DNA of 64,000 bases. It comes from a virus. The translations under genes and the position numbers were made by a program. Below the pieces are notes generated by a model. It was not told the DNA's origin. It was given only the letters and a program-made list of their open reading frames with translations, and did not search any database. Shown piece by piece: positions 1,247-58,749 of this stretch. Every line of letters starts with the position of its first letter. The first letter of the stretch is position 1. The stretch covers positions 187,488-251,487 of IMG/VR virus record IMGVR_UViG_3300027896_005002, one strand, 5' to 3'.

Positions 1247-1474
1247 TGTAAATGAGTAACAACGACGACGACGACATAACTACAAGGACTTTTATTATCT
1301 AAGTTTTTAATAAAGATGAATAATTTTTATCATAAGACAGTCTTCTATCACATTTCTTTAATTGTAATCATAAAAATAATCATAGAAATTTGGTAAATTA
1401 ACAATCAACTTAATCATATTTTTATCATGACTGTAACATAAACGTAACATATTAAAAATCGAGGCGATGATGAA

Positions 1475-2572
1475 ATGAAAATTAAGACTCCATATTATTT
1501 AATAGATGAAAAAAAATTACTAAAAAACTTGCAAAGAATTAAACTAATTAGAGAAGCATCTACCGCCAAAGTCCTTCTTGCTACAAAATGTTTTTGCTGC
1601 CCTTCAGTTTTCAATTTAATGAAGCAATATCTTGATGGCACAGTCTCCAGTTCAGTATATGAAACAAAACTAGGTTCTGAAGAATTTGGTAAAGAAACAG
1701 TAGCATATTGTGTCGGCTATTCAAAAGAAGATATTGATGAAATAAAAATGTATGCTGATAAAATAATTTTTAATTCAATATCACAATTAAAAATGTTTGG
1801 TGTTTACAGTAAAGATATGGAATCTGTAGGACTCCGAATAAATCCCAATATAAGTTATTCTCATTTCGATTTAGCCAATCCTTCAAGAAAAAATTCAAGA
1901 CTTGGTGTTGGTAATGTTGATGACATCATTGATGTCTTACATATGTTGGATGGTGTAATGTTTCACTTTAATTGTGAAAATGATGACTTTAATGCATTTT
2001 CTGTAATGATAGATTATATTAGTACAAATTTTTCAGAAATATTAAAAGATCTAGAATGGGTAAGTCTAGGTGGAGGTATATATTTTAGTAAAGAGAATTA
2101 TCCTGTTCAGAAATTTTGTGAAAAAATAAAATCATTTAGTAAAAGATTTAATGTACAAGTTTATTTAGAACCAGGTGAATCTATAATTGATAGAGCTGGT
2201 GAATTAGTCACAACAGTCGTTGATATTACTAATAATGACTGTGATCTTGCTATTGTTGATGCATCAATAGAAGCGCATATGTTAGATTTATTGACTTACA
2301 GACAATCTGCAATACTTAGTACAAATGGTAAATACAAATATACTGTATGTGGTCGGTCATGTCTTGCTGGTGATATTTTTGGTACGTACAAGTTTAAAGA
2401 TAAATTGAATATAGGTGATGAAATTAGATTTGAAAATGCATTAGGATATTCTATAGTAAAGAAAAATTGGTTTAACGGATTACAAATGCCGTCAATAGTC
2501 GTAAAAAGATTAGATGATTCACTTGAAATTATTAGAACATTTACATATAATGATTTTAGAAATAGTATTTAA
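1475..2572 (+). CDS. nspC: Carboxynorspermidine/carboxyspermidine decarboxylase (CANSDC)
   Basis: 365 aa; N-terminal TPYYLIDEKKLLKNL hallmark of NspC (PLP-dependent alanine-racemase-fold decarboxylase); size and layout match bacterial nspC. Confidence 0.75.
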   Translation: MKIKTPYYLIDEKKLLKNLQRIKLIREASTAKVLLATKCFCCPSVFNLMKQYLDGTVSSSVYETKLGSEEFGKETVAYCVGYSKEDIDEIKMYADKIIFNSISQLKMFGVYSKDMESVGLRINPNISYSHFDLANPSRKNSRLGVGNVDDIIDVLHMLDGVMFHFNCENDDFNAFSVMIDYISTNFSEILKDLEWVSLGGGIYFSKENYPVQKFCEKIKSFSKRFNVQVYLEPGESIIDRAGELVTTVVDITNNDCDLAIVDASIEAHMLDLLTYRQSAILSTNGKYKYTVCGRSCLAGDIFGTYKFKDKLNIGDEIRFENALGYSIVKKNWFNGLQMPSIVVKRLDDSLEIIRTFTYNDFRNSI

Positions 2573-2593
2573 ATAGAAGAAAGAAGGTGTAAT

Positions 2594-3841
2594 ATGAATA
2601 CTTTAATCATTGGAGCGGGTGGAGTAGCAAAAATTACAGCACATAAATGTGCTCAAGTCAATGATATCTTAGGTGATATTTGTATTGCATCTAGACACCA
2701 AGATAAATGTGATGAAATTATAGAAAGTGTTCATCGAAAAAACAATATTAAAAATAGAAAAAAGCGAATATTTTCAAAACAATTGAATGCCTTTAATGTA
2801 AGTGATACGATTAAACTTATTGAAAAAACTGATTCATCTATTGTACTTAATTTAGGCACAGCTTTTTTAAATATGTCAATACTTGAAGCTTGTATTAGAA
2901 CAGGTGTAAGTTATTTAGACACTGCAATCCATGAAGAACCTGATCGTGTAGCAACAATATGCGAGCCGCCTCCTTGGTATGCAAATTATGAATGGAAGAG
3001 AAAAGATCGTTGTGATGCGGCTAAGATTAATGCAATTTTGGGTATTGGTTTTGATCCTGGTGTTGTTAATGCTTATTGTGCATATGCACAAAATAAATTG
3101 TTTGATGAGATTGATACCATTGATATTTTAGATGTTAATGCTGGAAGTCATGGTCGATATTTTGCTACAAATTTTGATCCTGAGATTAATTTTAGAGAAT
3201 TTGTTGGTGATGCTTGGGAATGGGAAAATCGTGTATGGACAAAATATCCAATGCATGCTGTAAAGAAAATATATGATTTTCCTGTAGTAGGTAAGCAAAC
3301 CATGTATTTGACCGGTCATGATGAAATCCATTCTTTACATAAAAACATAAAAGCAAACACAATTAGGTTCTGGATGAGTTTTAGTGATCACTATATAAAA
3401 TGTTTTTCTGTTTTGAAAAATATTGGATTATTATCTGAAAAATCTGTAAAAACTGCTGAAGGTATTGAAGTCATTCCACTTAAGGTAGTAAAAGCTTGTT
3501 TACCTGATCCAAAATCATTAGCAAAAGATTATACCGGCAAAACATGCATCGGTTGTTTAATTAATGGTACAAAAAATAATGAAAGAAAAGAATATTTTAT
3601 ATATAATATTTGTGATCACAAAGAATGTTTTAAAGAAACAGAATCACAAGGGATTAGTTATACCGCAGGTGTTCCTATTACAACTGCAGCTGTATTATTA
3701 GCTAAAAAAATCTGGAATCCAATGAAAATGGTAAATGTTGAGGAATTAGATCCGAATCCATTTATTAAGTTACTTGGAGAAATGGGTCTTGGAACAGAAA
3801 CAATTGAAATAACAAAAAATAATCAAATGTTATGTTTATAA
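2594..3841 (+). CDS. Carboxynorspermidine dehydrogenase / carboxynorspermidine synthase (CANSDH, saccharopine-dehydrogenase-like)
   Basis: 415 aa; N-terminal Rossmann MNTLIIGAGGVAKITAHKCAQ typical of CANSDH; GAAAGAAGGTG SD; adjacent to nspC as in bacterial operons. Confidence 0.75.
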   Translation: MNTLIIGAGGVAKITAHKCAQVNDILGDICIASRHQDKCDEIIESVHRKNNIKNRKKRIFSKQLNAFNVSDTIKLIEKTDSSIVLNLGTAFLNMSILEACIRTGVSYLDTAIHEEPDRVATICEPPPWYANYEWKRKDRCDAAKINAILGIGFDPGVVNAYCAYAQNKLFDEIDTIDILDVNAGSHGRYFATNFDPEINFREFVGDAWEWENRVWTKYPMHAVKKIYDFPVVGKQTMYLTGHDEIHSLHKNIKANTIRFWMSFSDHYIKCFSVLKNIGLLSEKSVKTAEGIEVIPLKVVKACLPDPKSLAKDYTGKTCIGCLINGTKNNERKEYFIYNICDHKECFKETESQGISYTAGVPITTAAVLLAKKIWNPMKMVNVEELDPNPFIKLLGEMGLGTETIEITKNNQMLCL

Positions 3842-4676: not shown

Positions 4677-5546
4677 ATGACAGATCAAGAACGTATAAGT
4701 CTACTTGAACAAAAAGTAGAAAAAATTGCTGCTGTTTTGGTAAGTCATGGTATTAATGTAAAAGGTATTAATAATGTAGTAGTTAATAAAAAATCAAAGA
4801 GAAGTTATGGTTTTAAGCCTGATTTACCAGACCAACGAGACTTTACTTTTGCTTCGCTCGGAAAAACAGTTACTTTGCCGGCACTTATTGATCTTAGACC
4901 ACACGATTCTCCAATCGAAGATCAAGGTGATTTAGGTAGTTGTACTGCACATGCGCTTGCAGGCGCTCTTCAATTTCTTGAATTAAAAGACAAATTGCCG
5001 TTGGTAAATATGAGTAGGTTGTTTATTTATTATAATGAAAGAGCTCTTGAAGGAACAATTAGATCTGATAGCGGCGCTGCTCTTCGTGATGGAATTAAGA
5101 CATTGGCAAAACAAGGTTGTTGTGCTGAAAATGAATGGCCTTATATTATTCCTAGATTTGAGTTAAGACCATCAACAATTTGTTATAAAGATGGTGTAAA
5201 ACATATTATTCAAAGTTATTATAGAGTTATTACTTTAAATGATATGAAAACATGTTTAGCTTCTGGTTATCCATTTATTTTTGGTTTTACAGTTTATGAA
5301 AGTTTTGAAAGTGATCAAGTTGCAGCAACAGGTATTGTTCCTATGCCTGCACCCGGTGAACAAGTATTAGGTGGTCATGCAGTTTTAGCTGTAGGTTATG
5401 ATGATGCTAATCAAAGATTCATTGTCAGAAATTCATGGGGTACATCATGGGGTAGTAAAGGATATTTTTACTTGCCTTATGCTTATGTAACAAATCGGAA
5501 TTTAGCATCTGATATGTGGTATGTTAGTCGCGCAAAAGGTTTATAA
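4677..5546 (+). CDS. Papain-like (C1 family) cysteine peptidase
   Basis: QGDLGSCTAHALAG (Gln oxyanion plus catalytic Cys region), C-terminal NSWGTSWGSKGYFYLPY (Asn-Ser-Trp-Gly motif); AAAGGA SD. Confidence 0.7.
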   Translation: MTDQERISLLEQKVEKIAAVLVSHGINVKGINNVVVNKKSKRSYGFKPDLPDQRDFTFASLGKTVTLPALIDLRPHDSPIEDQGDLGSCTAHALAGALQFLELKDKLPLVNMSRLFIYYNERALEGTIRSDSGAALRDGIKTLAKQGCCAENEWPYIIPRFELRPSTICYKDGVKHIIQSYYRVITLNDMKTCLASGYPFIFGFTVYESFESDQVAATGIVPMPAPGEQVLGGHAVLAVGYDDANQRFIVRNSWGTSWGSKGYFYLPYAYVTNRNLASDMWYVSRAKGL

Positions 5547-6072: not shown

Positions 6073-6807
6073 TTATTTTTCCCAACTTTCCCAACTTTGT
6101 TGTGCTTTGCCTGTCAGATTTTTATACAAATTACATTTTCCGCATTTCATAGATTTAATATTTGATACTAATTCTTGATCTGTCGAATCAACATCACCAA
6201 TTTTATAACAACTATTACATTCACCAACAACAATTGAACCATCAATATTAATTGACGGCACACACATTTTTGCCATTTTAAATCGTAAATACATTATCGC
6301 AGTTTTAAAATTGTCAAAATAATGAATAAGCGACCGCAAATTAAAACATAAAGGACTTTGTCTTGTACATAATATATTATTTGTTAATGCACGACCAAAT
6401 GGTGATACAAGCAATAAATTATTGACGTAATTTAAATTTTCATTATTAACAAATTTTATACGTTGAGGATAATATCTAGAATCATTAGTAATTTGAAAAG
6501 TAACATTTGATTTTAGTATTTCATCTGAATAGTCTTCATTATTCAAAAACATTCCATTTGAAGCTACTAACAATGTTATAATTTTTTTACTTTCAATATA
6601 AGTTTTAGCAATACTAACAAAATCTAAAAATTGTGGATGTTCTGTAGGTTCTCCGCCTGATAAAAAGATCATTGTTGGATCAAATTTCATAACAAATTCT
6701 AAACATTTTATATATGTTTGAGCAGACATATGTTTACCATCAGGCGTAGAATTTATCATGCAATGAGAACAATTCATTCTACATGCATTAGTTATTCGTA
6801 TTAGCAT
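6073..6807 (-). CDS. Radical SAM enzyme (CxxxCxxC) with C-terminal extra Cys pairs (CNSC...CGKC, twitch/SPASM-like)
   Basis: ITNACRMNCSHCM motif 8 aa from N-terminus, GGEP motif (FLSGGEPTEHPQF), C-terminal CxxC x2. Confidence 0.65.
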   Translation of the reverse strand: MLIRITNACRMNCSHCMINSTPDGKHMSAQTYIKCLEFVMKFDPTMIFLSGGEPTEHPQFLDFVSIAKTYIESKKIITLLVASNGMFLNNEDYSDEILKSNVTFQITNDSRYYPQRIKFVNNENLNYVNNLLLVSPFGRALTNNILCTRQSPLCFNLRSLIHYFDNFKTAIMYLRFKMAKMCVPSINIDGSIVVGECNSCYKIGDVDSTDQELVSNIKSMKCGKCNLYKNLTGKAQQSWESWEK

Positions 6808-6864
6808 ATATGTTTAATCAATTTGTAAAACGTAGAAACTGTGTGGTGATTAGGCGGCAATTAC

Positions 6865-7776
6865 TTAAAGTTCTACTTCCATACCTTCTTTAGCTAATAT
6901 TATATTTAGATTTTCATATAGTCTATTATTCCACCAATTTTGAATAGTATCTAAAAAATCATCGGTATGTTTTGGATTATAATGAATACAATATAATTTC
7001 TTTACATTTGCTTGCATAGCGTTGTCTATAGCCATAGCATACGAACTATGACCAAATCCTTGCACAATCATTTTATCACTATTATATTCATCAGCTGTAT
7101 ACTGAGTATCATGAATCATAACATCACAATTTTTAGCAAAATTGATAACAGCTTTGTCACCACCAATTTTTGATTCATTGTCCCAAATACAAGCAACAGT
7201 CTTATCTGTTATTAAACTTTTTATTTTATAATATAAAGCACCTTGTTGTGGATGAGACGGTGCAAATGCTTGCATCACATCTACAGTAAATAAATTAGTT
7301 TGTAAAACTGATTTTCTAGTATAAGTATCTCCATCATTCATAATCTTACAGAGTCTTTCACTTTTGAGATGTTTGTATTCGATTGGAAATTGAGGTGGTA
7401 ACATTGTTTTTGATAAAATAATTTCTACATTTTCATTAAGAGATTCCATACCTAACATGTCAATTTTTGCTCCATGAAAATGATTAGGAGCAAAAAACGG
7501 AAAACCTTGCGTATGGTCAGGATGTAAATGTGTAAAGAATATTGGAAAAAATAAAAGTTCTTTCTTTTCAAAAAAATTGGATATAATATCTTGTCCCAAT
7601 TTTATTATACCTGTACCGGCATCAACAATAATTCTGTAAATCCTACCATCATATTCTTCTGAAAACGACACGCATGTAGTATTTCCACCATATCGTACAG
7701 TGTCGGGTCCTGGAACTGGATAACTGCCACGAGTACCATAAAATTTAATTTTCATTTTAATTTCCTTTTTTATCAA
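6865..7776 (-). CDS. Metallo-beta-lactamase (MBL)-fold metallo-hydrolase
   Basis: HxHxDH motif (THLHPDHTQG), N-terminal KFYGTRGSYPVPG typical of MBL/RNase-Z-like folds. Confidence 0.6.
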   Translation of the reverse strand: MIKKEIKMKIKFYGTRGSYPVPGPDTVRYGGNTTCVSFSEEYDGRIYRIIVDAGTGIIKLGQDIISNFFEKKELLFFPIFFTHLHPDHTQGFPFFAPNHFHGAKIDMLGMESLNENVEIILSKTMLPPQFPIEYKHLKSERLCKIMNDGDTYTRKSVLQTNLFTVDVMQAFAPSHPQQGALYYKIKSLITDKTVACIWDNESKIGGDKAVINFAKNCDVMIHDTQYTADEYNSDKMIVQGFGHSSYAMAIDNAMQANVKKLYCIHYNPKHTDDFLDTIQNWWNNRLYENLNIILAKEGMEVEL

Positions 7777-7984
7777 AGACTTCTACAAATTCATTTTTAC
7801 AATTTTTTTTAAAAATATGTCCATTTACTCCTGCATAAATATTATCATTTATAACATTTATACTATACCAATTTCTATGAGCGAATAATAAAGTACCACA
7901 ATATCGACATTGAGTAGTAGTACTAACTAATTCAAAAAAATTACATACTGGACACTTAACTCTTTGTTCATTTAACATATTCAT
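7757..7984 (-). CDS. Zinc-ribbon mini-protein (CPVC...CRYC), 75 aa
   Basis: Two CxxC pairs; overlapping stop/start with neighbours (translational coupling). Confidence 0.4.
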   Translation of the reverse strand: MNMLNEQRVKCPVCNFFELVSTTTQCRYCGTLLFAHRNWYSINVINDNIYAGVNGHIFKKNCKNEFVEVFDKKGN

Positions 7985-8520
7985 TTTTTTTCAATTGATA
8001 ATTTTATGTCTGAAAATTCCAAATGCATTGATTGTGCTTTAAATTTTGTTAAAACAGTTCTTGCGGCTCCAATAAAGGCAATTAACAATTCTGGATTATC
8101 TTCAACTAATGAGAATTCTTTGAAACTTGGTAATGTTTCTGATTTGACTTTGTTAGATTTTGGCTGTTTAGACTCTGGACTTTTTGACACACTAGATTTT
8201 CTTTTATTATAAGGATATTTGATAGCATTGCATGTATCACATCGTATTTGTCTACCTTTACGTTCAAATGGATTTTGACAATCTACACAAATTGTTGTTT
8301 TTGAAGATTCTTCATTTTTAGTCATTGATTCCTCCTTTTGAGAATCTATATTTTCAAGTGGTTGTAATGCAAAAGTACCTATTTTATGTGTGGGCATAAT
8401 TAAACATGAATTACAAGTAGTCTGTGATTCTATTACAGTTGAAAATGGTTGCCTGCATTTATCACAGATTTTTTCTCTTTGTATGTTGAGTTCTACTGGT
8501 TTTTTATAACTCCTCATCAT
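7981..8520 (-). CDS. Double zinc-ribbon protein, 179 aa
   Basis: CDKCRQPF...CNSC and CVDCQNPF...CDTC; Lys/Ser-rich linker. Confidence 0.45.
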   Translation of the reverse strand: MMRSYKKPVELNIQREKICDKCRQPFSTVIESQTTCNSCLIMPTHKIGTFALQPLENIDSQKEESMTKNEESSKTTICVDCQNPFERKGRQIRCDTCNAIKYPYNKRKSSVSKSPESKQPKSNKVKSETLPSFKEFSLVEDNPELLIAFIGAARTVLTKFKAQSMHLEFSDIKLSIEKK

Positions 8521-9449
8521 ATAAATCGTTTACATCCAGTCGTAGGACGAATAAAAGATATTTGACAATTACTTTTGTCTATTATACGTTTATCATAAAA
8601 TTCACATTTATTATTCTGACAAGGCTTAATTTCTTCCAACGATTGTTTAATTTTTTTACATTCAGGATGATGACTTTTTTCACCAATTGCCATATCAGTT
8701 AAATACCATTCTCCATTTGCACCTTTTAAGAAATCTAATGACCAATAACCACTAAATAATTTAGCTACATATGTAGCCATTTTAATAAGTTCATTTTCGT
8801 CATCATTAGATAATGAAGCCATTTCATCAAATAATTTTTCGTCTATATCATTTTCAAAAGCTTTTCTATCCCAATAATTATGATGACATTCTATCTTACC
8901 ATTACGTACAAAAAATCTTCGTTCCTTCGTTATAGGCATTTCACCTATAAAATAATGAAAATATGGTTCAGTTTTAATAAATTCACGAACAGCCCAAAAA
9001 TCAAAAGGAATTACTCTATCAATTGTAGCTATACAACTCATATAAAGTAGATTGTGCACGTGATTTAGTAAAGTATCAGATGTATGACTTAATAAAGTAC
9101 TTTCATTTTCAATAGTTTTTTCATTAATATAACAAGAATTTTTCCAATCATGTTTATTACTTAAATGTCCTGTTCGTAAAAATGCAGGTAATCCAACCTC
9201 AATAACTGCATTTTTTAAATCGGACATAAACTGTCCGAGGCCTTCAGGATTCTTATTGTCAAACAAGTCAATAAGTTGAACATTAGTATGAATGATTATT
9301 GTCTTTGGCATAGGAAAACTTAATCTGTAAAGTCTAGGATACCAAAATGTAATACAATTCATAGCATCGCATGTATCACAAACATCATCATTTACTATCA
9401 TTTCATTTGAATTGAATTCATTATTACATCTAATACAACGTTTTTTCAT
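8517..9449 (-). CDS. Putative ATP-grasp-fold enzyme with N-terminal zinc ribbon
   Basis: N-terminal CIRCNNEF...CDTC; C-terminal WSLDFLKGANGEWYLTDMAIGE resembles the ATP-grasp strand-loop (DF..dngewyvlEvN); low-confidence fold call. Confidence 0.35.
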   Translation of the reverse strand: MKKRCIRCNNEFNSNEMIVNDDVCDTCDAMNCITFWYPRLYRLSFPMPKTIIIHTNVQLIDLFDNKNPEGLGQFMSDLKNAVIEVGLPAFLRTGHLSNKHDWKNSCYINEKTIENESTLLSHTSDTLLNHVHNLLYMSCIATIDRVIPFDFWAVREFIKTEPYFHYFIGEMPITKERRFFVRNGKIECHHNYWDRKAFENDIDEKLFDEMASLSNDDENELIKMATYVAKLFSGYWSLDFLKGANGEWYLTDMAIGEKSHHPECKKIKQSLEEIKPCQNNKCEFYDKRIIDKSNCQISFIRPTTGCKRFI

Positions 9450-9517
9450 TTTTTTCTTTCAATTTTTTAAACAATTGTTACCCATATAATTAATTATGTT
9501 ATTTTTTTCTATATTTT

Positions 9518-9564
9518 CACAAAAAATATGTCCGACTCTATATTCGAGCAGTCGGACATATAAT
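9518..9564 (-). terminator. Rho-independent terminator (12-bp GC-rich stem ATATGTCCGACT/AGTCGGACATAT, then ATTTTTTGT on minus strand)
   Basis: Perfect inverted repeat 9530-9541/9553-9564 with 11-nt loop; T-run follows on minus strand; lies between convergently ending minus-strand transcription units. Confidence 0.6.
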
Positions 9565-9597
9565 TAGAGAAGGTCCTGTTAAGTCGACTTTAACGGT

Positions 9598-20713: not shown

Positions 20714-22030
20714 TTAATTTTCGTCTGCAAAATCAATATCTTCGAAAGGTTGAAGATCTTCAAGTTTCACTGCCCATAAGTCATCGTTGAATTTTTGCTC
20801 GCTATCTGTTAAGGTATTCAAGTCCGACTTCATAGCAAATGAAAAATATTTTGAATTGTTAGCAGTTTTGTTCATACTTGTATCGCCTGCTTTTAGGTTT
20901 TTAAACCCGGCTTTTGCGAAGAACAATTGGAAAATAGCTGGATCAATGTAATGCCTTCTTGCAACTTTCGGTGTATTTCCCAAAAATTCTGAAACAACAT
21001 TTGAGGCTCTCTTAACTGAATTTTTTGCATCTTTTTTTGTAAATTTAACAACATTAATATCATCTAAAAATTCTTTGGCAATTTTTGATGCATGATAATG
21101 TCTGAAATGATGAATTGTTACATTCGATCCAAGATTTTTTCTTAAATATCTATTGACTAATCTTGGGGAAATCCTAAATTGTTTTTCTCCTTTTTTGAAA
21201 GTAAATATGGAATCTTCTGGTCCTTTACTAGTAATTAATTCCTGTAAATTTCGTTTAACAGGAGCAGATACTTCTATTGTATGTTTTTGAGGTATTTCAT
21301 CTTTTCCAGTATAACTAAATTCTATTTTATTATTGTCTTTAAAAGTCATATGTTTTACTTTTAAATTATGAAGACCTCGAACATCATTCTGTTCACTCTT
21401 TTTATTACCTACTCTCATAGCACATTGATCAACTAAAGCAATTGCAGTAGCATATACTCTCGACCGAACATTAGTACTATTTAAATCTGTATTATATTTT
21501 TCTCTTATGCTTGGTAATAATTGACCAAAACGTTGATTATTTGCAAATTTAATTTTCTTATGCTTTTTAATATAATTTTCTGTATAATAATGCTGCTTTT
21601 TGCCAGACTTTGGATGACGCTGAATTGCATAATAAACGTCATCAGTTTTACTTTTCCATTTAGGATTAATTTCAACCTTAACACCTGAATAAAATCCATG
21701 AGTTGTATTAAGACGTTTGCCGTCTTTTGTAAAAAATTCAGGATGAGTCTTAAATGTAATTTTTGCTTTTTCTTTTCTTTTAGATTTAATGTCTTCTTTT
21801 TTACCTTTTGTCTTAGACTTAGGTTCATCAAATTTAATATCACCTCTTTCTATTACATCATCTAACTCATTGTATTTTTTATGCAAAGCATTCAAACGAC
21901 GTTGTTCTTCAGGAGGTAATGATTTGAAGACAACCATGTTTCTGGTTTTAGGATTGGGAAACTTTTTTCCCATCCACCATGGTTTAGCTATTTTCAAAAA
22001 TTCTAGAGAAATTTGAGCTAAATGCTTCAT
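20714..22030 (-). CDS. DNA topoisomerase IB (pox/bacterial type) carrying the shared N-terminal leader
   Basis: RVGNKKSEQNDVRGLHNLKVKHM (Topo IB core), catalytic Tyr context LGNTPKVARRHYIDP (compare vaccinia SKRAY), HHFRHYHASK; N-terminal MKHLAQISLEFLKIAKPWW is homologous to the leader family. Confidence 0.7.
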   Translation of the reverse strand: MKHLAQISLEFLKIAKPWWMGKKFPNPKTRNMVVFKSLPPEEQRRLNALHKKYNELDDVIERGDIKFDEPKSKTKGKKEDIKSKRKEKAKITFKTHPEFFTKDGKRLNTTHGFYSGVKVEINPKWKSKTDDVYYAIQRHPKSGKKQHYYTENYIKKHKKIKFANNQRFGQLLPSIREKYNTDLNSTNVRSRVYATAIALVDQCAMRVGNKKSEQNDVRGLHNLKVKHMTFKDNNKIEFSYTGKDEIPQKHTIEVSAPVKRNLQELITSKGPEDSIFTFKKGEKQFRISPRLVNRYLRKNLGSNVTIHHFRHYHASKIAKEFLDDINVVKFTKKDAKNSVKRASNVVSEFLGNTPKVARRHYIDPAIFQLFFAKAGFKNLKAGDTSMNKTANNSKYFSFAMKSDLNTLTDSEQKFNDDLWAVKLEDLQPFEDIDFADEN

Positions 22031-22695
22031 ATTTTATCCTTTAAACGTTTTAATTCTTTTCTCTCCCATTCTTTACCTCCTAAAGGTGGATTTTTAGAAG
22101 GCCAACCTTTATTACCAGCATCTTTGTACCTACCCAAAAATAATCCCATACTTACATAATTATTGCCCTGCATACCTTGCTCAGTATAGTCGAGCGAATT
22201 TCGTTTATAACCTTTTTTTTCCATTATATCTCTAATTGATTTTAGAAATTTTGGATCTGTATATATCAAACCAGTCTTACTCGGACGATAACCGTCAAGA
22301 TAAACTCTTATATGTGCATAATTATCATCATTATCAGGATCACCAAGATCTTCATGAGGTTCAAGCTTAATTTTTGATATTCTATATTCTTGCTTTTCAT
22401 CAGATCCACCCCACATTCCGTGAGATGAACTACCAAAGGCTTCTACCTTTTTGCCTTCCATGTTGTGTACAAACTTATTAAATAACATCTCATTTCTAGT
22501 CTTCTTCTCAATTCTTTTTAGACGATTACTTATTTCTTCGTTGGGTGTATTACCTCTCGAAATTGCACTTGGCGTCAAACGTCTTTTACTTTTTGGATGT
22601 CTTTTTAGATAAGCTCTTTGAAACTCTAGAGGCATATCTTTCCACTTTCGGGCTTCTTTAACAAATTCAGATTGAATGATAGCTAAATGATTCAT
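22027..22695 (-). CDS. Leader-family protein 2 (222 aa; unknown C-terminal domain)
   Basis: N-terminal MNHLAIIQSEFVKEARKWKDMPLEFQRAYLKRHPKSKRRL; TAAGGAATGA SD; ATGA overlap with the topo IB gene. Confidence 0.55.
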   Translation of the reverse strand: MNHLAIIQSEFVKEARKWKDMPLEFQRAYLKRHPKSKRRLTPSAISRGNTPNEEISNRLKRIEKKTRNEMLFNKFVHNMEGKKVEAFGSSSHGMWGGSDEKQEYRISKIKLEPHEDLGDPDNDDNYAHIRVYLDGYRPSKTGLIYTDPKFLKSIRDIMEKKGYKRNSLDYTEQGMQGNNYVSMGLFLGRYKDAGNKGWPSKNPPLGGKEWERKELKRLKDKI

Positions 22696-22703: not shown

Positions 22704-23153
22704 TTACGTTTTATTTTTTTTTCTTAAATCTAATTTTACCAAAAAATAATCTTTTTTAAATTTTTCTTTTATTTTCTTTTTCAATTGAGCTTTAATAAAA
22801 TTTCTAATCTTATCTTGTTTTTGCTCAAAATATTCAGCTTCTTCATCGGAAACATCTCCAGCTATTGAATCAAATATTTTTTCTGTATAATGTTCTATAC
22901 TATCTTTATCTGTATAATCATGTCTTATTATATCATCTACTTGATTATCAATTTCATTTACTGCATCTTTGGCAAAATCATAATCTTCAAAGTTTTTCTT
23001 TTTGTTTTCGACAACAATACGTTTTCCAACATCTATCTGTCTTTTGCTTTTGGGATGTCTTTTTAAATAAGCTTTTTGAAATTCTAAAGACATGTCTTTC
23101 CACTTACAAGCTTCTTTAATAAATTCAGATTGAATGATAGCTAAATGATTCAT
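22704..23153 (-). CDS. Leader-family protein 3 (149 aa; acidic/coiled-coil C-terminal part)
   Basis: N-terminal MNHLAIIQSEFIKEACKWKDMSLEFQKAYLKRHPKSKRQ; first 110 nt nearly identical at DNA level to the 22027-22695 paralog. Confidence 0.55.
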   Translation of the reverse strand: MNHLAIIQSEFIKEACKWKDMSLEFQKAYLKRHPKSKRQIDVGKRIVVENKKKNFEDYDFAKDAVNEIDNQVDDIIRHDYTDKDSIEHYTEKIFDSIAGDVSDEEAEYFEQKQDKIRNFIKAQLKKKIKEKFKKDYFLVKLDLRKKNKT

Positions 23154-23471: not shown

Positions 23472-24983
23472 TCAATTATTTTTAATTAAATCAATAGCCT
23501 CATCTTTTGTCATATCTGGATTTTGCATCAACTGATCTTTCAAATAATTAAGTATTTTACCAACTTCTGGTCCTTGTGGTATATTTAATATTTGCATAAC
23601 TTCATTACCAGATATTGGCAATTTTATTTGCTCTATAGGTTTTTCTTCCTGTAATTGTTTTATTCTATTTTTCAATTCTATAAATTCATCCATATTAGTA
23701 TGGTCAGCCACATGACTCATTCTGTCAGCTTCAATCAAATTCAACACATGTTCTAATTCAGGTCCCATATCTCTTATAAATCGTCTAACAGAAGCTTTAG
23801 ACCATGTTTTTGAATCCCTTGTTCTCATATGTGATTCAACAACTTTTGAAACTATATTTATCATATCATTCGGATATTTCATTCTTTTCATTACATCTTG
23901 AGTAATATTTTTTGATACATCATCATGAGCGTAAAAATGAGTACCTGATTCAGTAACAGTTCTTGTATCTGCTTTACCAATATCATGAAATACTGCTGAC
24001 AATCTATCTGTTAAAGTTGGTTTTGATTGCTTCAATACATCCATTGTATGAGTCCAAGCATCAGCATAGTGAAATTTACCTTGTTCGATACCTTCAAGTT
24101 TTAATAATTCTGGCATGAATTGTTTTAATAATCCAGTATTTTTTAATATTTCAAGACCTCTGCTTGGATTGTTTGTCAATAATATTTTATTAAATTCATC
24201 TTGAATTCTTTCAGCTGAAATAAAATTAAGTTCTTGCGCATTAGTTTTGATTGCAGGTTCAATATCATCGGCAAATTTAAAATTGTATTTAACAGCAAAA
24301 CGTACAGCTCTCATCATGCGAAGCGGGTCGTCATTAAATGTAATGTTGGGATTTAGAGGTGTACGAATTATGCCGTCGTTTAAGTCTTTTAAACCTTTGC
24401 CAGTTAAGTCTAATGTTTTGTTATTAGTAAGATCATATAGTAGAGAATTTATCGTAAAATCTCGACGTTCTACATCTTCTTGTATTGTACCAAAAGAAGT
24501 CTTTGGTTTACGACTATGTTTTGCATATTCTTCATTTCTTGTTTGAACAAATTCAACTTCAACACTATTTTTAAGTTGTATTTTGGCAGTACCAAAAGTT
24601 GGAAATATAACGGGTTCTCTAATACCTAGTTTTTTGCTGATATATTCTGCAAGTTTAATTCCACCATTTAAAGCTGTGACAGTAATATCAATGTCTTTAG
24701 ATTTTTTACCTAATAATTCATCGCGAACAAATCCGCCAGCAAGAAATGCATGATTTGCAAATGGAGATTCTTTAATAATTGAACTTAACAATTTTATTGA
24801 TTGTTGTTCTTTGGTTTTTGACCGTGGTCTACCTGTAAGTTTTTTCTTTGAAAGAGGATGTTTATTTAAATAATCTTTTTGTTGTCGAAGCGTAAGATCA
24901 TCCCACGAAAGCGCAATTTTGATAAATTCACGATTTATTTTTAAAAAGTTAGTCATATAACCTTTAACGTTAAATTGACACAA
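23472..24983 (-). CDS. CCA-adding tRNA nucleotidyltransferase / poly(A) polymerase family enzyme with HD domain, carrying the shared leader
   Basis: Pol-beta-type head LAGGFVRDELLGKKSKDIDI (GGxVRD...DxD), HD motif AVFHDIGKADT; leader MTNFLKINREFIKIALSWDDLTLRQQKDYLNKHPLSKKKL (true start probably the Met at about 24956). Confidence 0.65.
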   Translation of the reverse strand: MCQFNVKGYMTNFLKINREFIKIALSWDDLTLRQQKDYLNKHPLSKKKLTGRPRSKTKEQQSIKLLSSIIKESPFANHAFLAGGFVRDELLGKKSKDIDITVTALNGGIKLAEYISKKLGIREPVIFPTFGTAKIQLKNSVEVEFVQTRNEEYAKHSRKPKTSFGTIQEDVERRDFTINSLLYDLTNNKTLDLTGKGLKDLNDGIIRTPLNPNITFNDDPLRMMRAVRFAVKYNFKFADDIEPAIKTNAQELNFISAERIQDEFNKILLTNNPSRGLEILKNTGLLKQFMPELLKLEGIEQGKFHYADAWTHTMDVLKQSKPTLTDRLSAVFHDIGKADTRTVTESGTHFYAHDDVSKNITQDVMKRMKYPNDMINIVSKVVESHMRTRDSKTWSKASVRRFIRDMGPELEHVLNLIEADRMSHVADHTNMDEFIELKNRIKQLQEEKPIEQIKLPISGNEVMQILNIPQGPEVGKILNYLKDQLMQNPDMTKDEAIDLIKNN

Positions 24984-29133: not shown

Positions 29134-29544
29134 TCAACTTCGTGCTTCTTTAATAAATTCACCTTGAATAGTAGCAAAATGTTTTGCAATCTTTTTTACA
29201 TTTTCTATTGGCACATTATCTTTTCCAGAACCATCATCATATTTTATATTCACTGTTTGTCGGTCTAAATTCACAATGTTTCCAGGTTTTCCTTCGTGTT
29301 CAACCTTGTCACCCATCATAGCAATATTGCCGTCATTATATAATAAACGTTTTCTTTGATTTATAAATTCACCGTCAGCTTGTTTTTTTATATCCATTGT
29401 TAACTCTATATTTGGTTTTGACACTTCAGCACTTAGAGATATTTTCTGAACGCCTCCAAGTTGTTGACCGTCAACAAAGACTTTGGTTCTTGCAGTTCTA
29501 CCATCAGTTTCAATTACGAGTTTTTTGTAGTTCATATTAATCAC
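29134..29544 (-). CDS. Leader-family-associated protein, 136 aa, ending in the leader motif (KHFATIQGEFIKEARS); KOW/DUF2945-like GDKVEHEGKPGNIVNL segment
   Basis: C-terminus is the first half of the leader consensus; reads into the pseudogene above. Confidence 0.45.
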   Translation of the reverse strand: MINMNYKKLVIETDGRTARTKVFVDGQQLGGVQKISLSAEVSKPNIELTMDIKKQADGEFINQRKRLLYNDGNIAMMGDKVEHEGKPGNIVNLDRQTVNIKYDDGSGKDNVPIENVKKIAKHFATIQGEFIKEARS

Positions 29545-29959
29545 TCAAATTTTTTATTTTTTTCATCATATCTGTTTTACTTAATAATCTATTACTTTCT
29601 TTACTGTCATCTTCATTTGAATCTTCATGTGATTTAAAAAACAAATATTTTTCAGTATTAAAAACAAATTCTATAAAATACCATTTTCCTTTTATTTTAA
29701 GCCTAACACCATGATCACTTGATTTAACATTTGTAATATTTGGAATATTGGATAATTCTGTAGCTATTTTCTCAGCTTTAATTGTATTAGTGACTTTCCT
29801 TTTATGATATGCTTGATTTTCTGTTAAAACTTTACCAGTCAATCGTCTTTTTGACTTTGGATGTTTTTTCAAATATTTTCTTTGTTCATCAAAAGACAAA
29901 TCATTCCATTTTCTTGCTTCTTTAATAAATTCAGATTGAATTGCAGCTAAATGTTGCAT
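29537..29959 (-). CDS. Leader-family protein (140 aa)
   Basis: N-terminal MQHLAAIQSEFIKEARKWNDLSFDEQRKYLKKHPKSKRRLTG. Confidence 0.55.
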   Translation of the reverse strand: MQHLAAIQSEFIKEARKWNDLSFDEQRKYLKKHPKSKRRLTGKVLTENQAYHKRKVTNTIKAEKIATELSNIPNITNVKSSDHGVRLKIKGKWYFIEFVFNTEKYLFFKSHEDSNEDDSKESNRLLSKTDMMKKIKNLSD

Positions 29960-30313
29960 TCATTCCTCTATCTGTTCAGGTGTAACTTCCCTTAAACCAT
30001 CATCACCTTTATCTCTATATTTCTTATCAACTCTTACCATAATAACACCGTGTTCTTCTTCAACATCAACAATTTTTCCAGCTTCTGCAGGCCATCCTTC
30101 TTTTTTATTTGCTTTGAGACGAACTTTCTGACCCTTTTCAAAATCAGGCATACTTGTACGACCACTACCACCGCCTCGGCCAAAAAAGTTCGTCAATTGT
30201 CTCTTACTTTTAGGATGTCGTCTTAAATAAGCTTTTTGCTGTTTTAAAGACAATTTTTCCCATTTACGAGCTTCTTTAATAAATTCAGATTGAATTTGAG
30301 CTATGTGTTTCAT
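29960..30313 (-). CDS. Leader-family protein (117 aa) with C-terminal KOW/DUF2945 (Tudor-like) domain
   Basis: N-terminal MKHIAQIQSEFIKEARKWEKLSLKQQKAYLRRHPKSKRQL; C-terminal GQKVRLKANKKEGWPAEAGKIVDVEEEHGVIMVRVD; TAGGAAATACAAT SD; ATGA overlap with the next gene. Confidence 0.55.
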   Translation of the reverse strand: MKHIAQIQSEFIKEARKWEKLSLKQQKAYLRRHPKSKRQLTNFFGRGGGSGRTSMPDFEKGQKVRLKANKKEGWPAEAGKIVDVEEEHGVIMVRVDKKYRDKGDDGLREVTPEQIEE

Positions 30314-46200: not shown

Positions 46201-46849
46201 ATTCATCAAATTGTTGTACAGTTAAATGATTTTTTAATTTGTCAACATACCCATCATCAGTTCCTTTAACCATACATTCTGAAACTGTGTCCCATAATTT
46301 TGCATAGGATAAAACACCTGGATGTCTAATTCCAGTGCCTTTGATTACTGCATTTCGAGGTCTAATAAAACCTAAATTTATTCCATAACCGCCTTCAGAA
46401 GCCAGTGTTTTGGCTTGTTCCATTATTGTCAAGAAAATATTTGTGAGATCATCTGGATTATCATCTGTTTCAATATCAACATCATAAATTACAGATTTAT
46501 CTTCAGTTTGTCGTTTATATTTTATTGATGCACCAGAAACAGGTCCATTAATAAAACAATTCATTAATGTAGCATTTTTATAATCTGTTCCTAAATTGGC
46601 AGTTATTCTACCACCTAAAGTCACTTTAAGACCCATAGGTTCTTTATTAGGATAACCATTATCATCAACATCGAAATCGCCATCAAATTTTAGTAGAGTT
46701 TGTAAAAAGGGCTTGTACCATTTTTGGGGATCTTTTTCAACAGATGCAAGAGTTTTTGCACATCTTATAAAAGTTTCAAGTTCTGATTCATTTTTATACT
46801 GATACTTCTTCTCCCAATTCTCTTTTGCAAGTGATGTTTTGAAAATCAT
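43262..46849 (-). CDS. Ribonucleotide reductase catalytic subunit interrupted by an intein; C-terminal Cys-rich zinc-ribbon tail (class II NrdJ-like or class I large subunit)
   Basis: Active-site NPC|CGEI split by a 334-aa insert; GGYGINLGFIRP-type RNR motifs; C-terminal CEACGAENSV...CYKCLQCGDSRCG; no small-subunit gene seen in the window. Confidence 0.75.
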   Translation of the reverse strand: MIFKTSLAKENWEKKYQYKNESELETFIRCAKTLASVEKDPQKWYKPFLQTLLKFDGDFDVDDNGYPNKEPMGLKVTLGGRITANLGTDYKNATLMNCFINGPVSGASIKYKRQTEDKSVIYDVDIETDDNPDDLTNIFLTIMEQAKTLASEGGYGINLGFIRPRNAVIKGTGIRHPGVLSYAKLWDTVSECMVKGTDDGYVDKLKNHLTVQQFDELKNIMKRQTRKGAMMGVLPCHHPDIEEFIRVKQSSGVLTKFNLSVLIDDKFMEAVVADDLYDLHFKGKVYKRIKARELYDLIMQSTYNRAEPGVLFVDNMHRNNPLAYLGKCDTTNPCVIGSSIAAVADGRNGVTFKQLAEEAKDVPVYSRNFSTGAVEIKMGRNPRKTGEKKEVWKLTLDDNSYFIATPDHKICSSKGTEINLKDLIPGDSIVPFDSYISYGHTTYRQIAQSSKLKKSSGLCLSRRQYRLIYEFYYPNDLIDSKLHRIHHDDFNHYNDRPENLKKMTVEEHDMVHDISGKKNPMYDFPKRIKDPERYHKNMSEAVSGLKNGRAAKISNEDYFNKIIEIIKNFKIKYKKSPCKREIIQRLKTNKLPTFSKYRLENLNYATMSKMFKAAERIAEANHKVKSIEFYGYEDVYNITVDDNHNYAVITSFDDDRYLQSSGIFVKNCGEIGGLSSITTVCLLGSLNITQYIYIDKDGKPQFDIDQYAYDIGIFARMLDNVNDLTNLPLPSYEYVVRNFRQFGMGINGLGSALFMLGMSYNSKEAIKFTKKICELKENLVWQASALLAKEKGTFTAYNTEKFQNTEYFLSDRLWNKTKELIIQHGVRNAKTTTNPPLGNSSIVCNNVSNAIEPVFSLEYERIVICGLWPEGLSDDNVKDVLKYHKKKDFEYWRGSYNGKIYYYEPHNRGLCEVNIVRDYGYQWLLDNFPDKDHSAYLVTTKDLKTEDHLNIQEVVQYYCNQSVSKTCNVPHDFPFENFKQLYIDAWKRGLNGFTTYRDGCMESVISSLEEANKEQKIIKRDIKLPEVFLNGPTRIIKREGQKFYIHFSFLPEDTDMKYPICLWIYSNSREIGQVKVCNKASRKLAQLAIEKGVDNSIIQQCIDKAKVDYSYNRLGRMISLCLRHNIKREDILIALRNIEGDNISSLLTAVRKFISLTIKDGTVISMKCEACGAENSVIMEGGCYKCLQCGDSRCG
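44849..45850 (-). mobile_element. Intein (334 aa) with HNH homing-endonuclease motif inserted at the RNR active-site NPC/CGEI junction
   Basis: Starts at Cys (CVIGSS), ends ...IFVKN followed by +1 Cys of CGEI; internal HRIHHDDFNHYNDRPENL...HDMVHD HNH motif; codon boundaries checked against the DNA. Confidence 0.7.
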
Positions 46850-58458: not shown

Positions 58459-58749
58459 TTAGTTTTCTTTCAGTTTGACGACATCAATAAGAAACTTTTT
58501 ATACAATCTATCAAAATGCTTATCATTAGTAAAAGGACTTGCTCTACCAGATGACAACTTATGAAATAATTGCGTCACGAAAGTGAAACAAAAACTATCA
58601 TCACCAACACTTATATCACAATGAATATTGTTTTCATCTACAAAATCAAACAAAGCAATAATTCCTGTTCCACTACTACTATGCAGAGTAAAACCTCGTG
58701 TCATCATCAAACTTTTCATATTACTAACTATTGTATCAAATTCATCCAT
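58459..58749 (-). CDS. Hypothetical protein, 96 aa
   Basis: ORF adjacent to the recombinase gene. Confidence 0.35.
   Translation of the reverse strand: MDEFDTIVSNMKSLMMTRGFTLHSSSGTGIIALFDFVDENNIHCDISVGDDSFCFTFVTQLFHKLSSGRASPFTNDKHFDRLYKKFLIDVVKLKEN

What the first reader, a model, noticed from the sequence alone, without database searches (positions are those of the whole stretch)
1475..3841. Plus-strand island encoding the carboxynorspermidine pathway (CANSDH plus CANSDC) in a virus
Two adjacent plus-strand genes, in a genome otherwise transcribed from the minus strand, encode the alternative (aspartate-semialdehyde-dependent) route to norspermidine/spermidine: a saccharopine-dehydrogenase-like carboxynorspermidine dehydrogenase and the PLP-dependent decarboxylase NspC. 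Phage-encoded polyamine synthesis could serve DNA condensation in the capsid, host biofilm/physiology manipulation, or supply of a polyamine donor for DNA base hypermodification (compare alpha-putrescinylthymine in phage phiW-14). The window also encodes dCTP deaminase, dUTPase and a ThyA-family fragment (63802-64000), which are compatible with a modified-dU pathway.
Basis: partly seen in the sequence, partly recalled or inferred. Interest (0 to 1): 0.65.

Follow-up and report, generated by a model that had tools for sequence, protein, structure and literature searches.

The report
Huge phage carries bacterial spermidine-synthesis operon
A roughly 416-kb bacteriophage genome carries an intact two-gene bacterial operon for making spermidine or norspermidine from aspartate semialdehyde, a polyamine route I could not find reported for any virus, although other virus-encoded polyamine genes are already known.

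Summary
ORF 1475-2572 (+) is a carboxy(nor)spermidine decarboxylase (NspC/CASDC). ORF 2594-3841 (+) is a carboxy(nor)spermidine dehydrogenase (CANSDH/CASDH). The decarboxylase comes first, 21 nt upstream, which is the arrangement found in about 70 of 80 bacterial genomes with the closest homologues.

The window belongs to a 415,903-bp contig with phage-type content: recombination and replication genes, inteins, homing endonucleases, lysis-type enzymes and Shine-Dalgarno sites. No capsid or terminase gene was seen.

Both genes match the phage's base composition and codon usage. All known catalytic residues are kept. The dehydrogenase falls in an NJ clade (65-94% bootstrap) made only of phage-like contigs, next to Elusimicrobiota. 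About a third of those contigs lack the decarboxylase.

The product cannot be told from sequence; it depends on which diamine the host supplies.

The link to DNA hypermodification is not supported. dCTP deaminase, dUTPase and a ThyA-like gene are present, but they form an ordinary dTMP supply set, and no 5-hmdU kinase or aGPT-Pplase (the amine-transfer enzyme) was found in 81 kb.

No genuine GenBank phage carries either gene, and the 2023 survey of viral polyamine enzymes does not report this route. Verdict: a real, probably functional auxiliary metabolic operon. It is a new member of a known kind, of moderate interest.

The parts
1247..1474 (.). AT-rich 228-nt intergenic region between the minus-strand methyltransferase-like gene (662-1246) and nspC. 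It is the presumed divergent promoter region of the island.
   Evidence: Sequence read. The consensus scan finds only weak sigma-70-like sites, 9 of 12 matches, so no promoter is established. A GAGG lies 11-14 nt upstream of the nspC ATG.
1475..2572 (+). nspC / CASDC: PLP-dependent carboxy(nor)spermidine decarboxylase, 365 aa.
   Evidence: TIGR01047, 393.8 bits, E 5e-118. Pfam Orn_Arg_deC_N plus Orn_DAP_Arg_deC. PDB 3mt1 E 4e-124 and 9eaf E 4e-70. Catalytic residues K38, H164, C167, E232, G234, E235, D271, C296 and Y325 are conserved when mapped on ClCASDC. Four substitutions at near-invariant sites, L37T, W43P, T57V and H76V, are unique to this copy or nearly so; two further departures, G30T and D321N, are at somewhat more variable sites.
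2573..2593 (+). 21-nt spacer carrying an SD-like GAAGGTG upstream of the CANSDH start. The layout is that of an operon.
   Evidence: Nearly all bacterial nspC-CANSDH pairs have a similarly short gap, about 20-300 nt.
2594..3841 (+). CANSDH / CASDH: NADPH-dependent carboxy(nor)spermidine dehydrogenase (synthase), 415 aa.
   Evidence: NF043000, 470 bits, E 6e-141. Pfam Sacchrp_dh_NADP plus Sacchrp_dh_C. PDB CASDHs at E 1e-99 to 7e-92. G7-x-G-x-x-A12 NADP loop, E202 (BfCASDH E188) and H242-D243-E244 (Bf H228-E229-E230) are present. 143 of 147 positions that are at least 97% invariant in bacteria are kept.

Best explanation
The island is a bacterial nspC-CANSDH operon captured as a unit by a lineage of very large phages. 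It now lives in a roughly 416-kb phage genome as an auxiliary metabolic module.

Proposed mechanism, taken from the established chemistry of the two families:
1. The dehydrogenase condenses host L-aspartate beta-semialdehyde with a host diamine and reduces the imine with NADPH. Putrescine gives carboxyspermidine; 1,3-diaminopropane gives carboxynorspermidine.
2. The PLP-dependent decarboxylase removes the carboxyl group, giving spermidine or norspermidine.

Which triamine is made depends on which diamine the unknown host supplies.

Inferred purpose: to raise or maintain the triamine pool during infection. That pool serves translation and neutralises the charge of a very large packaged genome. 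The route draws on the aspartate pathway rather than on S-adenosylmethionine.

Shown: gene identity, intact catalytic residues, operon layout, phage setting, long residence in the phage genome, purifying selection on the dehydrogenase, and a virus-associated clade.

Inferred: enzymatic activity, product, timing of expression and benefit to the phage.
For: Identity.

Catalytic residues:
- Decarboxylase: K38, H164, C167, E232, E235, D271, C296 and Y325 are all invariant across 189 homologues.
- Dehydrogenase: GxGxxG loop, E202 and H242-D243-E244.
- The H-D-E and GFDPGVV variants are shared by all 120 best homologues, by S. meliloti (GFDPGVV confirmed) and by Paracoccus pantotrophus (both confirmed). 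Orthologues from P. denitrificans, A. tumefaciens and B. abortus make spermidine when expressed in E. coli (PMC11999265).

Operon capture: nspC lies directly upstream on the same strand in about 70 of 80 bacterial genomes and in most of 80 metagenome loci.

Long residence in the phage:
- GC 0.283 and 0.307, against a gene mean of 0.303.
- Codon-usage distance 0.081 and 0.076, against 0.074 +/- 0.022.
- 143 of 147 invariant dehydrogenase positions are kept.

Phage setting:
- 415,903-bp contig, with a 416,029-bp twin in another assembly.
- Shine-Dalgarno sites.
- UvsX-like recombinase with a LAGLIDADG insert, SbcC/SbcD-like proteins, gp32-like SSB, UvsY-like protein, ribonucleotide reductase with an insert, DnaE with an intein, sigma-factor region 4, DUF3310, RuvC, M15 peptidase, SLT and GIY-YIG.
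- Only distant (25-30%) matches, to jumbo and SPO1-like phages.

Virus-associated clade: the NJ tree groups the window with contigs of 429, 474, 302, 125, 96, 86, 63 and 32 kb and with no labelled cellular sequence. Bootstrap support is 90-94% for the core, 78% with the IMG/VR contigs and 65% for all 17. The contexts of those contigs are phage-like.
Against: - No biochemical data.
- Both proteins score below NCBI's equivalog cut-offs: 393.8 against 409 and 470 against 800. Their bacterial orthologues carry the generic name too, so they probably fall below the cut-off as well.
- The decarboxylase carries four substitutions found in no or almost no other of 189 homologues (L37T, W43P, T57V, H76V), close in sequence to the PLP lysine. 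Activity or specificity may therefore be altered or weakened.
- No capsid, portal or terminase gene was seen in the 81 kb available.
- No promoter or terminator could be assigned.
- Five related phage-like contigs carry the dehydrogenase without the decarboxylase. The pair is therefore not an obligatory unit in this phage clade.
- The tree is distance-based, and many clade members are short contigs of unknown origin.
Confidence: 0.7

Rival explanations
1. The pair, or the dehydrogenase alone acting with a promiscuous decarboxylase, is tuned to a different amine acceptor. It would then change which polyamines the infected cell contains rather than simply adding triamine. Candidate products are spermine, thermospermine or norspermine from triamines, or N1-aminopropylagmatine from agmatine. 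Tetraamines condense DNA better, which would suit a 416-kb genome.
For: - Family members accept putrescine, diaminopropane, agmatine or spermidine, and the dehydrogenase sets specificity (PMC11999265; PMC10599626).
- The phage enzymes share GFDPGVV (confirmed in S. meliloti and P. pantotrophus) and GHDE (confirmed in P. pantotrophus) with the alphaproteobacterial type, whose P. denitrificans, A. tumefaciens and B. abortus members also make spermine and thermospermine.
- Several phage relatives keep only the dehydrogenase.
- The window's decarboxylase has unusual substitutions near the PLP lysine.
Against: - The dehydrogenase keeps 143 of 147 positions invariant in bacterial orthologues, so it shows no sign of a new function.
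- No residue-level rule for specificity is known, so the idea cannot be tested from sequence.
- No aminopropylagmatine ureohydrolase was seen in the window.
Confidence: 0.15
2. One reading: the polyamine made is a donor for hypermodification of phage DNA bases, as with alpha-putrescinylthymine in phiW-14, fed by the dCTP deaminase, dUTPase and ThyA-like genes.
For: - dCTP deaminase, dUTPase and a divergent ThyA-family protein are present. The ThyA-like protein's best model is archaeal-type thymidylate synthase, 105.7 bits against a cut-off of 174.55, so a hydroxymethylase cannot be excluded.
- A small P-loop kinase-like ORF lies near ThyA.
- In three related phage contigs the dehydrogenase sits next to a DUF7487 protein, which in two of them also has a Mom-family domain.
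Against: - Those three nucleotide enzymes are the standard dTMP route of many phages.
- Pfam and PHROG scans of 56 window ORFs and 7 flanking ORFs found no aGPT-Pplase, no 5-hmdU DNA kinase and no Mom or DUF7487.
- The kinase-like ORF matches polynucleotide kinase.
- The polyamine island is about 60 kb from ThyA.
- From my own knowledge, known thymidine hypermodifications use putrescine or amino acids, not spermidine.
Confidence: 0.05
3. The replicon is not a virus but a plasmid, another large extrachromosomal element or a reduced cellular genome, or the island is an assembly chimera. In that case the operon would be ordinary cellular metabolism.
For: No virion structural gene or terminase was seen in the 81 kb available. 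The SSB has no relative in IMG/VR or GenBank phages.
Against: - Phage-type recombination and replication set, lysis-type enzymes, inteins and homing endonucleases, about half of the ORFs without known relatives, and near-uniform coding strand.
- No tRNA or Rfam RNA, and no ribosomal or other housekeeping gene in any scan (26, 37).
- The same protein pair lies on two independently assembled contigs of 415,903 and 416,029 bp.
- Composition and codon usage of the island match the rest of the window.
Confidence: 0.05
4. The genes manipulate host behaviour, for example norspermidine-dependent biofilm signalling, rather than serving phage replication directly.
For: Norspermidine released by lysis drives biofilm formation in Vibrio cholerae (PMC10914755, listed). 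The enzymes could make norspermidine if diaminopropane is available.
Against: The host is unknown. No diaminobutyrate aminotransferase or decarboxylase was seen in the window. No signalling component lies nearby. The nearest cellular relatives are Elusimicrobiota and Omnitrophota, for which no such signalling has been described, to my knowledge.
Confidence: 0.05

Closest known systems
Bacterial nspC-CANSDH (CASDC-CASDH) operon of the aspartate-semialdehyde-dependent spermidine/norspermidine pathway, as in Vibrio cholerae, Campylobacter jejuni, Bacteroides, Agrobacterium and Paracoccus
   Same: Same two families, same gene order and short spacer, and the same catalytic residues. Identity is 55-58% to the Paracoccus pantotrophus and S. 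meliloti dehydrogenases and 62-72% to those of Elusimicrobiota, Omnitrophota and Sporomusaceae. The decarboxylase aligns end to end with the S. meliloti structure 3mt1 (E 4e-124) and shows 51% tblastn identity to the S. meliloti pSymB gene.
   Different: It is encoded on a roughly 416-kb phage genome, on the strand opposite to almost all neighbouring genes. It has drifted to 30% GC. The dehydrogenase belongs to a clade made only of phage-like contigs, and the decarboxylase has substitutions at otherwise invariant sites.
Virus-encoded polyamine biosynthesis: the chlorovirus PBCV-1 pathway, phage AdoMetDC/SpeD homologues, spermidine synthase, and homospermidine synthase of Ralstonia phage phiRSL1 (PMC9992855)
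   Same: Same logic: a virus carries host-derived enzymes that raise or reshape the triamine pool. Homospermidine synthase is a distant homologue of CASDH.
   Different: A different, non-homologous route that depends on aspartate semialdehyde rather than decarboxylated SAM. That survey mentions carboxyspermidine enzymes only as relatives and reports none in viruses. No genuine GenBank phage record carries either gene.
Thymidine hypermodification systems such as alpha-putrescinylthymine of phiW-14
   Same: Only the presence of a ThyA-family gene together with enzymes that supply dUMP.
   Different: The defining kinase and amine-transfer enzymes were not found. Polyamine synthesis genes are not part of the described systems, to my knowledge.

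Membership tests
Carboxy(nor)spermidine dehydrogenase (CASDH/CANSDH, EC 1.5.1.43) | Three-domain saccharopine-dehydrogenase-like fold with an N-terminal Rossmann GxGxxG NADP loop | tested here: met
   Pfam Sacchrp_dh_NADP (residues 4-147) plus Sacchrp_dh_C (152-399). G7-A-G-G-V-A12. Full-length alignment to 4ina, 8h4z, 4rl6 and 8deb.
Carboxy(nor)spermidine dehydrogenase (CASDH/CANSDH, EC 1.5.1.43) | Active-site His-acidic-Glu triad (BfCASDH H228-E229-E230) and E188, which are absent from saccharopine and lysine-6 dehydrogenases (PMC10413350) | tested here: met
   H242-D243-E244 and E202. The middle Glu is Asp and Bf S144 is Val158. Both variants are shared by all 120 best homologues. Paracoccus pantotrophus shows both, and S. 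meliloti shows GFDPGVV, its triad not having been read. They are therefore a subfamily trait and not a defect.
Carboxy(nor)spermidine dehydrogenase (CASDH/CANSDH, EC 1.5.1.43) | Score at or above NCBIfam equivalog cut-off (NF043000, 800 bits) | tested here: not met
   470.4 bits, E 6e-141, the only family hit. This is a naming threshold, not a biochemical feature. Close bacterial orthologues are also named only 'saccharopine dehydrogenase family protein'.
Carboxy(nor)spermidine dehydrogenase (CASDH/CANSDH, EC 1.5.1.43) | Genomic pairing with a carboxyspermidine decarboxylase | tested here: met
   nspC ends 21 nt upstream on the same strand, as in about 70 of 80 bacterial genomes.
Carboxy(nor)spermidine dehydrogenase (CASDH/CANSDH, EC 1.5.1.43) | NADPH-dependent reductive condensation of aspartate semialdehyde with a diamine; identity of the amine substrate | not testable with these tools
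   Needs an enzyme assay or heterologous expression.
Carboxy(nor)spermidine decarboxylase (NspC/CASDC, EC 4.1.1.96) | Alanine-racemase-fold PLP decarboxylase that is closer to NspC than to DapDC, ODC or ADC | tested here: met
   TIGR01047 at 393.8 bits against lysA at 78.6. In the PDB, four CANSDC/CASDC structures score E 4e-124 to 2e-57, against 1e-10 or weaker for DapDC.
Carboxy(nor)spermidine decarboxylase (NspC/CASDC, EC 4.1.1.96) | PLP-lysine and active-site residues of ClCASDC (K43, H170, C173, E237, G239, E240, D276 of the specificity helix, C306, Y335) | tested here: met
   K38, H164, C167, E232, G234, E235, D271, C296 and Y325. The eight of these checked in the 189-sequence alignment (all but G234) are invariant.
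Carboxy(nor)spermidine decarboxylase (NspC/CASDC, EC 4.1.1.96) | Score at or above NCBIfam equivalog cut-off (TIGR01047, 409.05 bits) and retention of family-invariant positions | tested here: inconclusive
   393.8 bits, 15 bits short. 94 of 100 invariant positions are kept. L37T, W43P, T57V and H76V are unique to this sequence or nearly so.
Phage auxiliary metabolic gene (virus-encoded polyamine biosynthesis) | Encoded on a bona fide viral genome, not on a flanking host region or an assembly chimera | tested here: met
   Phage-type gene content on both sides for 81 kb. Composition matches the genome. Two independent assemblies of about 416 kb. Caveat: no virion gene was seen.
Thymidine hypermodification pathway (phiW-14 / ViI / M6 type) | 5-hmdU DNA kinase and aGPT-Pplase-type amine transferase alongside a dUMP hydroxymethylase | tested here: not met
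   Neither was found by Pfam or PHROG scans of 56 window ORFs and 7 flanking ORFs. The ThyA-like protein could not be typed. About 335 kb of the contig could not be read.

The most novel reading that the evidence does not exclude
A lineage of very large phages has domesticated the dehydrogenase of the aspartate-semialdehyde polyamine route. Some members keep the decarboxylase and others rely on the host's. Because the dehydrogenase sets substrate choice, the phage could dictate which polyamines the infected cell makes, possibly including tetraamines that condense DNA strongly enough to package genomes of 400 kb and more. This would be the first SAM-independent polyamine pathway in the virosphere, and a link between polyamine chemistry and the upper size limit of phage genomes.
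Probability: 0.15. Interest if true: 0.75.

Novelty: new member of a known kind. Interest (0 to 1): 0.5.

Why it matters
Virus-encoded polyamine synthesis is established for chloroviruses, giant viruses and some phages. All reported viral routes to a triamine use decarboxylated SAM or homospermidine synthase. This finding would add the aspartate-semialdehyde route, which is widespread in bacteria and, according to one paper, used by about 70% of human gut species, to the list of pathways that phages borrow.

The genes also form a virus-associated clade in huge phages rather than being a one-off transfer. That gives a concrete and cheap experiment: express the pair in E. coli delta-speD. It also raises a testable question about whether huge phages outrun the host's polyamine supply.

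My own arithmetic, as illustration only: 415,903 bp carry about 832,000 phosphates. Neutralising 30% of that charge with spermidine needs about 83,000 molecules per virion. A 1-fL cell at 1 mM holds about 600,000.

Tried and rejected
- DNA-level searches of the island and of the first 25 kb against GenBank phages found nothing.
- The SSB found nothing by tblastn in GenBank phages or in IMG/VR, so the phage could not be placed in a known family.
- No tRNA and no Rfam family were found in the window.
- The promoter and terminator scan gave nothing above background that explains expression of the island.
- A profile-based rescan of IMG/VR returned the same four contigs as the single-sequence scan.
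- The three 'Bacteriophage sp.' GenBank records with an NspC-like gene were considered as precedents and set aside. The one I examined, MT835546, is a bacterial chromosome fragment with MatE, ComM-like, PGM, FtsA and GH26 genes.
- Synteny between the window and other contigs that carry the dehydrogenase was absent, so the gene sits in different contexts.
- The DUF7487/Mom neighbour seen in relatives is absent from the window and its flanks.
- A 100-replicate bootstrap on 202 taxa timed out. It was redone on 68 taxa.
- The 2010 structural paper on CANSDC is not held. The structural position of the unusual decarboxylase substitutions therefore rests on my own gapless register with ODC, recalled from memory.
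Full report
**What is at the coordinates**

The interval 1475-3841 holds exactly two + strand ORFs: 1475-2572 (365 aa) and 2594-3841 (415 aa), separated by 21 nt.

The first ORF is a PLP-dependent decarboxylase of the alanine-racemase fold.
- Its best family is NCBIfam TIGR01047 nspC (E 5e-118, 393.8 bits). Diaminopimelate decarboxylase is far behind at 78.6 bits.
- Its best solved relatives are four carboxy(nor)spermidine decarboxylases: 3mt1 E 4e-124, 9eaf 4e-70, 3n29 4e-69 and 36gy 2e-57.

The second ORF has the Sacchrp_dh_NADP plus Sacchrp_dh_C architecture.
- Its only NCBIfam hit is NF043000, carboxynorspermidine synthase (E 6e-141).
- In the PDB it matches only 4ina, 8h4z, 4rl6 and 8deb (E 1e-99 to 7e-92). 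The CASDH structure paper assigns all four to the CASDH family (PMC10413350).

The gene order is therefore decarboxylase then dehydrogenase, the reverse of the finding's title. Both scores fall below NCBI's equivalog cut-offs (409 and 800 bits). Close bacterial orthologues also carry only the generic name 'saccharopine dehydrogenase family protein'.

**Are the enzymes intact?**

I mapped the decarboxylase on the C. leptum enzyme, using the alignment and the residues listed in PMC11866407.
- It keeps the Schiff-base lysine (K38), the stacking histidine (H164), C167, E232, G234 and E235.
- It keeps the specificity-helix aspartate (D271), the catalytic cysteine (C296) and Y325.
- The eight of these that were checked in the 189-sequence alignment (all but G234) are invariant.

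The dehydrogenase keeps the GxGxxG loop, the equivalent of BfCASDH E188 (E202), and the catalytic His-acidic-Glu triad as H242-D243-E244.
- The middle residue is Asp rather than Glu, and Bf S144 is Val.
- All 120 best homologues share both variants. Paracoccus pantotrophus shows both, and S. meliloti shows GFDPGVV.
- They therefore mark a subfamily and are not damage.

Orthologues of that subfamily from P. denitrificans, A. tumefaciens and B. abortus make spermidine, and some spermine and thermospermine, when expressed in E. coli (PMC11999265).

The dehydrogenase retains 143 of 147 positions that are at least 97% invariant in 79 bacterial sequences.

The decarboxylase retains 94 of 100 such positions. 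However, four of its six departures are found in no or almost no other homologue: L37T, W43P, T57V and H76V. The other two are G30T and D321N. The first five lie within about 40 residues of K38. This is unexplained. It could mean altered specificity or relaxed constraint.

**Is it a virus?**

The exact proteins lie on ENA contig k141_2484546, which is 415,903 bp. The window is positions 187,411-251,410. A second assembly gives a 416,029-bp contig.

Within the window, 79 of 85 ORFs are on the minus strand. Many starts are preceded by AGGAG or AAGGA, so the host is a bacterium.

Recognisable genes include:
- a UvsX-like recombinase interrupted by a LAGLIDADG element;
- SbcC- and SbcD-like nucleases, a gp32-like SSB and a UvsY-like protein;
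- a 1195-aa ribonucleotide reductase large subunit;
- DnaE with an intein, DNA ligase and RuvC;
- a sigma-factor region 4 protein and DUF3310;
- M15 peptidase, SLT, GIY-YIG, a tRNA nucleotidyltransferase, Thg1 and a TnpB-like transposase.

There are no tRNAs or Rfam RNAs. None of the scans turned up a ribosomal or other housekeeping gene. The recombination proteins have only 25-30% identical relatives, in jumbo Erwinia and Yersinia phages, Moorella phage MTATph1, SPO1-like phages and cyanomyophages.

This is a deep-branching huge phage. The caveat is that no capsid or terminase gene lies in the 81 kb I could read.

**Origin and history**

In about 70 of the 80 GTDB genomes with the closest dehydrogenase, nspC lies immediately upstream on the same strand, 20-300 nt away. 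The same holds for most of 80 metagenome loci. The phage island is thus a whole bacterial operon.

It is not a recent arrival or a chimera:
- GC is 0.283 and 0.307, against 0.303 for window genes.
- GC3 is 0.153 and 0.156, against 0.176.
- Codon-usage distances are 0.081 and 0.076, against 0.074 +/- 0.022.

A neighbour-joining tree places the window's dehydrogenase with sequences from contigs of 429, 474, 302, 125, 96, 86, 63 and 32 kb, next to Elusimicrobiota and Endomicrobia. No labelled cellular sequence falls inside that clade.
- Bootstrap support is 90% with L006 plus L094 and 94% with P0012.
- It is 78% with the two IMG/VR contigs and 65% for all 17 members.

The contexts I inspected look like phage: collagen-like proteins and large ORFs without known relatives, phage-type primase, HNH and NUMOD endonucleases, NUDIX and TnpB.

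Neighbouring genes are not shared between these contigs. The gene therefore sits in different places, like a moron.

Within the clade:
- nspC is adjacent in the window, L003, L095, the P0012 contig, L104, L105, L119 and L120.
- It is absent within 8-10 kb in L002, L006, L009, L094 and L096.

The decarboxylase's nearest relatives are only 60-65% identical (Omnitrophota, PVC group, Elusimicrobiota). It groups only weakly with other phage-linked copies.

**What it most likely does**

From the established chemistry of the two families, the dehydrogenase condenses aspartate beta-semialdehyde with a diamine and reduces the imine with NADPH. The decarboxylase then yields the triamine.

The name 'norspermidine' cannot be taken literally.
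- Characterised enzymes use putrescine, 1,3-diaminopropane, agmatine or spermidine.
- The dehydrogenase decides which (PMC10413350, PMC11999265).
- The window encodes no enzyme that makes a diamine and no ASA dehydrogenase.

Both substrates must therefore come from the host, and the product follows the host's diamine.

I infer an auxiliary metabolic role: keeping triamine supply up for translation and for neutralising a very large genome, without drawing on SAM. That is inference and has not been shown.

**The hypermodification idea**

They are the normal dCTP to dUTP to dUMP to dTMP route.
- The ThyA-like protein is divergent. Its best model is archaeal-type thymidylate synthase, at 105.7 bits against a cut-off of 174.55, so a hydroxymethylase cannot be excluded.
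- No 5-hmdU kinase, aGPT-Pplase, Mom or DUF7487 protein turned up in the window or flanks.

I rate this reading at about 5%.

**Novelty**

- The 2023 survey of virus-encoded polyamine enzymes mentions carboxyspermidine enzymes only as relatives of other families. It reports none in viruses (PMC9992855).
- Four further full-text searches found no paper linking these enzymes to phage or viral auxiliary genes.
- Among 50,697 GenBank phage records, the dehydrogenase has one 25%-identical hit.
- The decarboxylase has three hits at 32-34% on 'UNVERIFIED' gut contigs. The one I examined is plainly bacterial.
- IMG/VR holds four contigs, two of which group with Pseudomonas.

The case appears to be unreported. 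Still, it is an ordinary operon in a new kind of carrier, within a known category of virus-encoded polyamine genes. I class it as a new member of a known kind and score interest at 0.5.

Noticed in passing
window 1475-2572 (residues 30, 37, 43, 57, 76, 321): The decarboxylase carries L37T, W43P, T57V and H76V at positions where it is the only, or one of two, departures among 189 homologues, including other phage-linked copies. G30T and D321N are further departures. The first five changes cluster around the PLP lysine K38. The sequence is reproduced in two assemblies.
   Followed up: partly
L006 10001-14141; L009 10001-14186; L094 3496-7413: In related huge-phage contigs (429 kb, 474 kb, 32 kb) the dehydrogenase stands alone without nspC. 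It is followed by one or two small ORFs and a DUF7487 protein. In the 845-aa versions that protein also has a Mom-family domain (PF25680, 34.5 bits) and, by eye only, a Vsr-like endonuclease motif. This may be a mobile element or a DNA-modification link.
   Followed up: partly
window 43262-46849 (-), 58749-61157 (-); L092 2456-5437: Three core replication genes appear to be interrupted by inteins or homing elements. The ribonucleotide reductase large subunit is 1195 aa against about 770 matched profile positions. The UvsX-like recombinase carries a LAGLIDADG insert at residues 354-545. DnaE carries an Intein_splicing domain.
   Followed up: no
window 22027-22695, 22704-23153, 29537-29959, 29960-30313 (all -); L095 2594-2950: Four window ORFs share a short N-terminal segment of 40-120 aa, at 34-68% identity, with a 353-aa protein of an unrelated phage-like contig. 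It looks like a multi-copy N-terminal domain family of unknown function.
   Followed up: no
window 4677-5546 (+): A papain-family C1 cysteine peptidase (PF00112, E 2.5e-15) is the next + strand gene, 836 nt downstream of the island. Three small minus-strand ORFs lie between them.
   Followed up: no
window 6073-13026 (-): A run of enzymes of unknown role lies next to the island: a radical SAM protein (6073-6807), an MBL-fold / RNase Z-like protein (6865-7776), an R2K-type ATP-grasp protein (8517-9449) and a 561-aa Ser/Thr protein kinase-like protein (11341-13026).
   Followed up: partly
window 63802-64000 and beyond (L092 8994-9923): The ThyA-family protein (309 aa) is divergent. Its best model is the archaeal-type thymidylate synthase TIGR03283 at 105.7 bits (cut-off 174.55), and it scores only 54 bits on the phage thymidylate synthase PHROG. 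Whether it is a synthase or a hydroxymethylase is open.
   Followed up: partly
L099 (GenBank MT835546.1, 1-35076): This record, labelled 'UNVERIFIED: Bacteriophage sp.', is a bacterial chromosome fragment carrying MatE, a ComM / Mg-chelatase-like gene, phosphoglucomutase, an FtsA-like gene, GH26 and a PPIase. Its NspC-like gene is not evidence for a phage copy.
   Followed up: yes
L001 2487-3719 and 6780-7463 (upstream of the window): A TnpB / IS605 OrfB-like gene, a Thg1-family tRNA-His guanylyltransferase-like gene, RlaP and small RRM_1 and WGR proteins lie just upstream of the window. Together with the CCA-adding enzyme at 23472-24983, this is an unusual set of RNA-repair-type genes.
   Followed up: no
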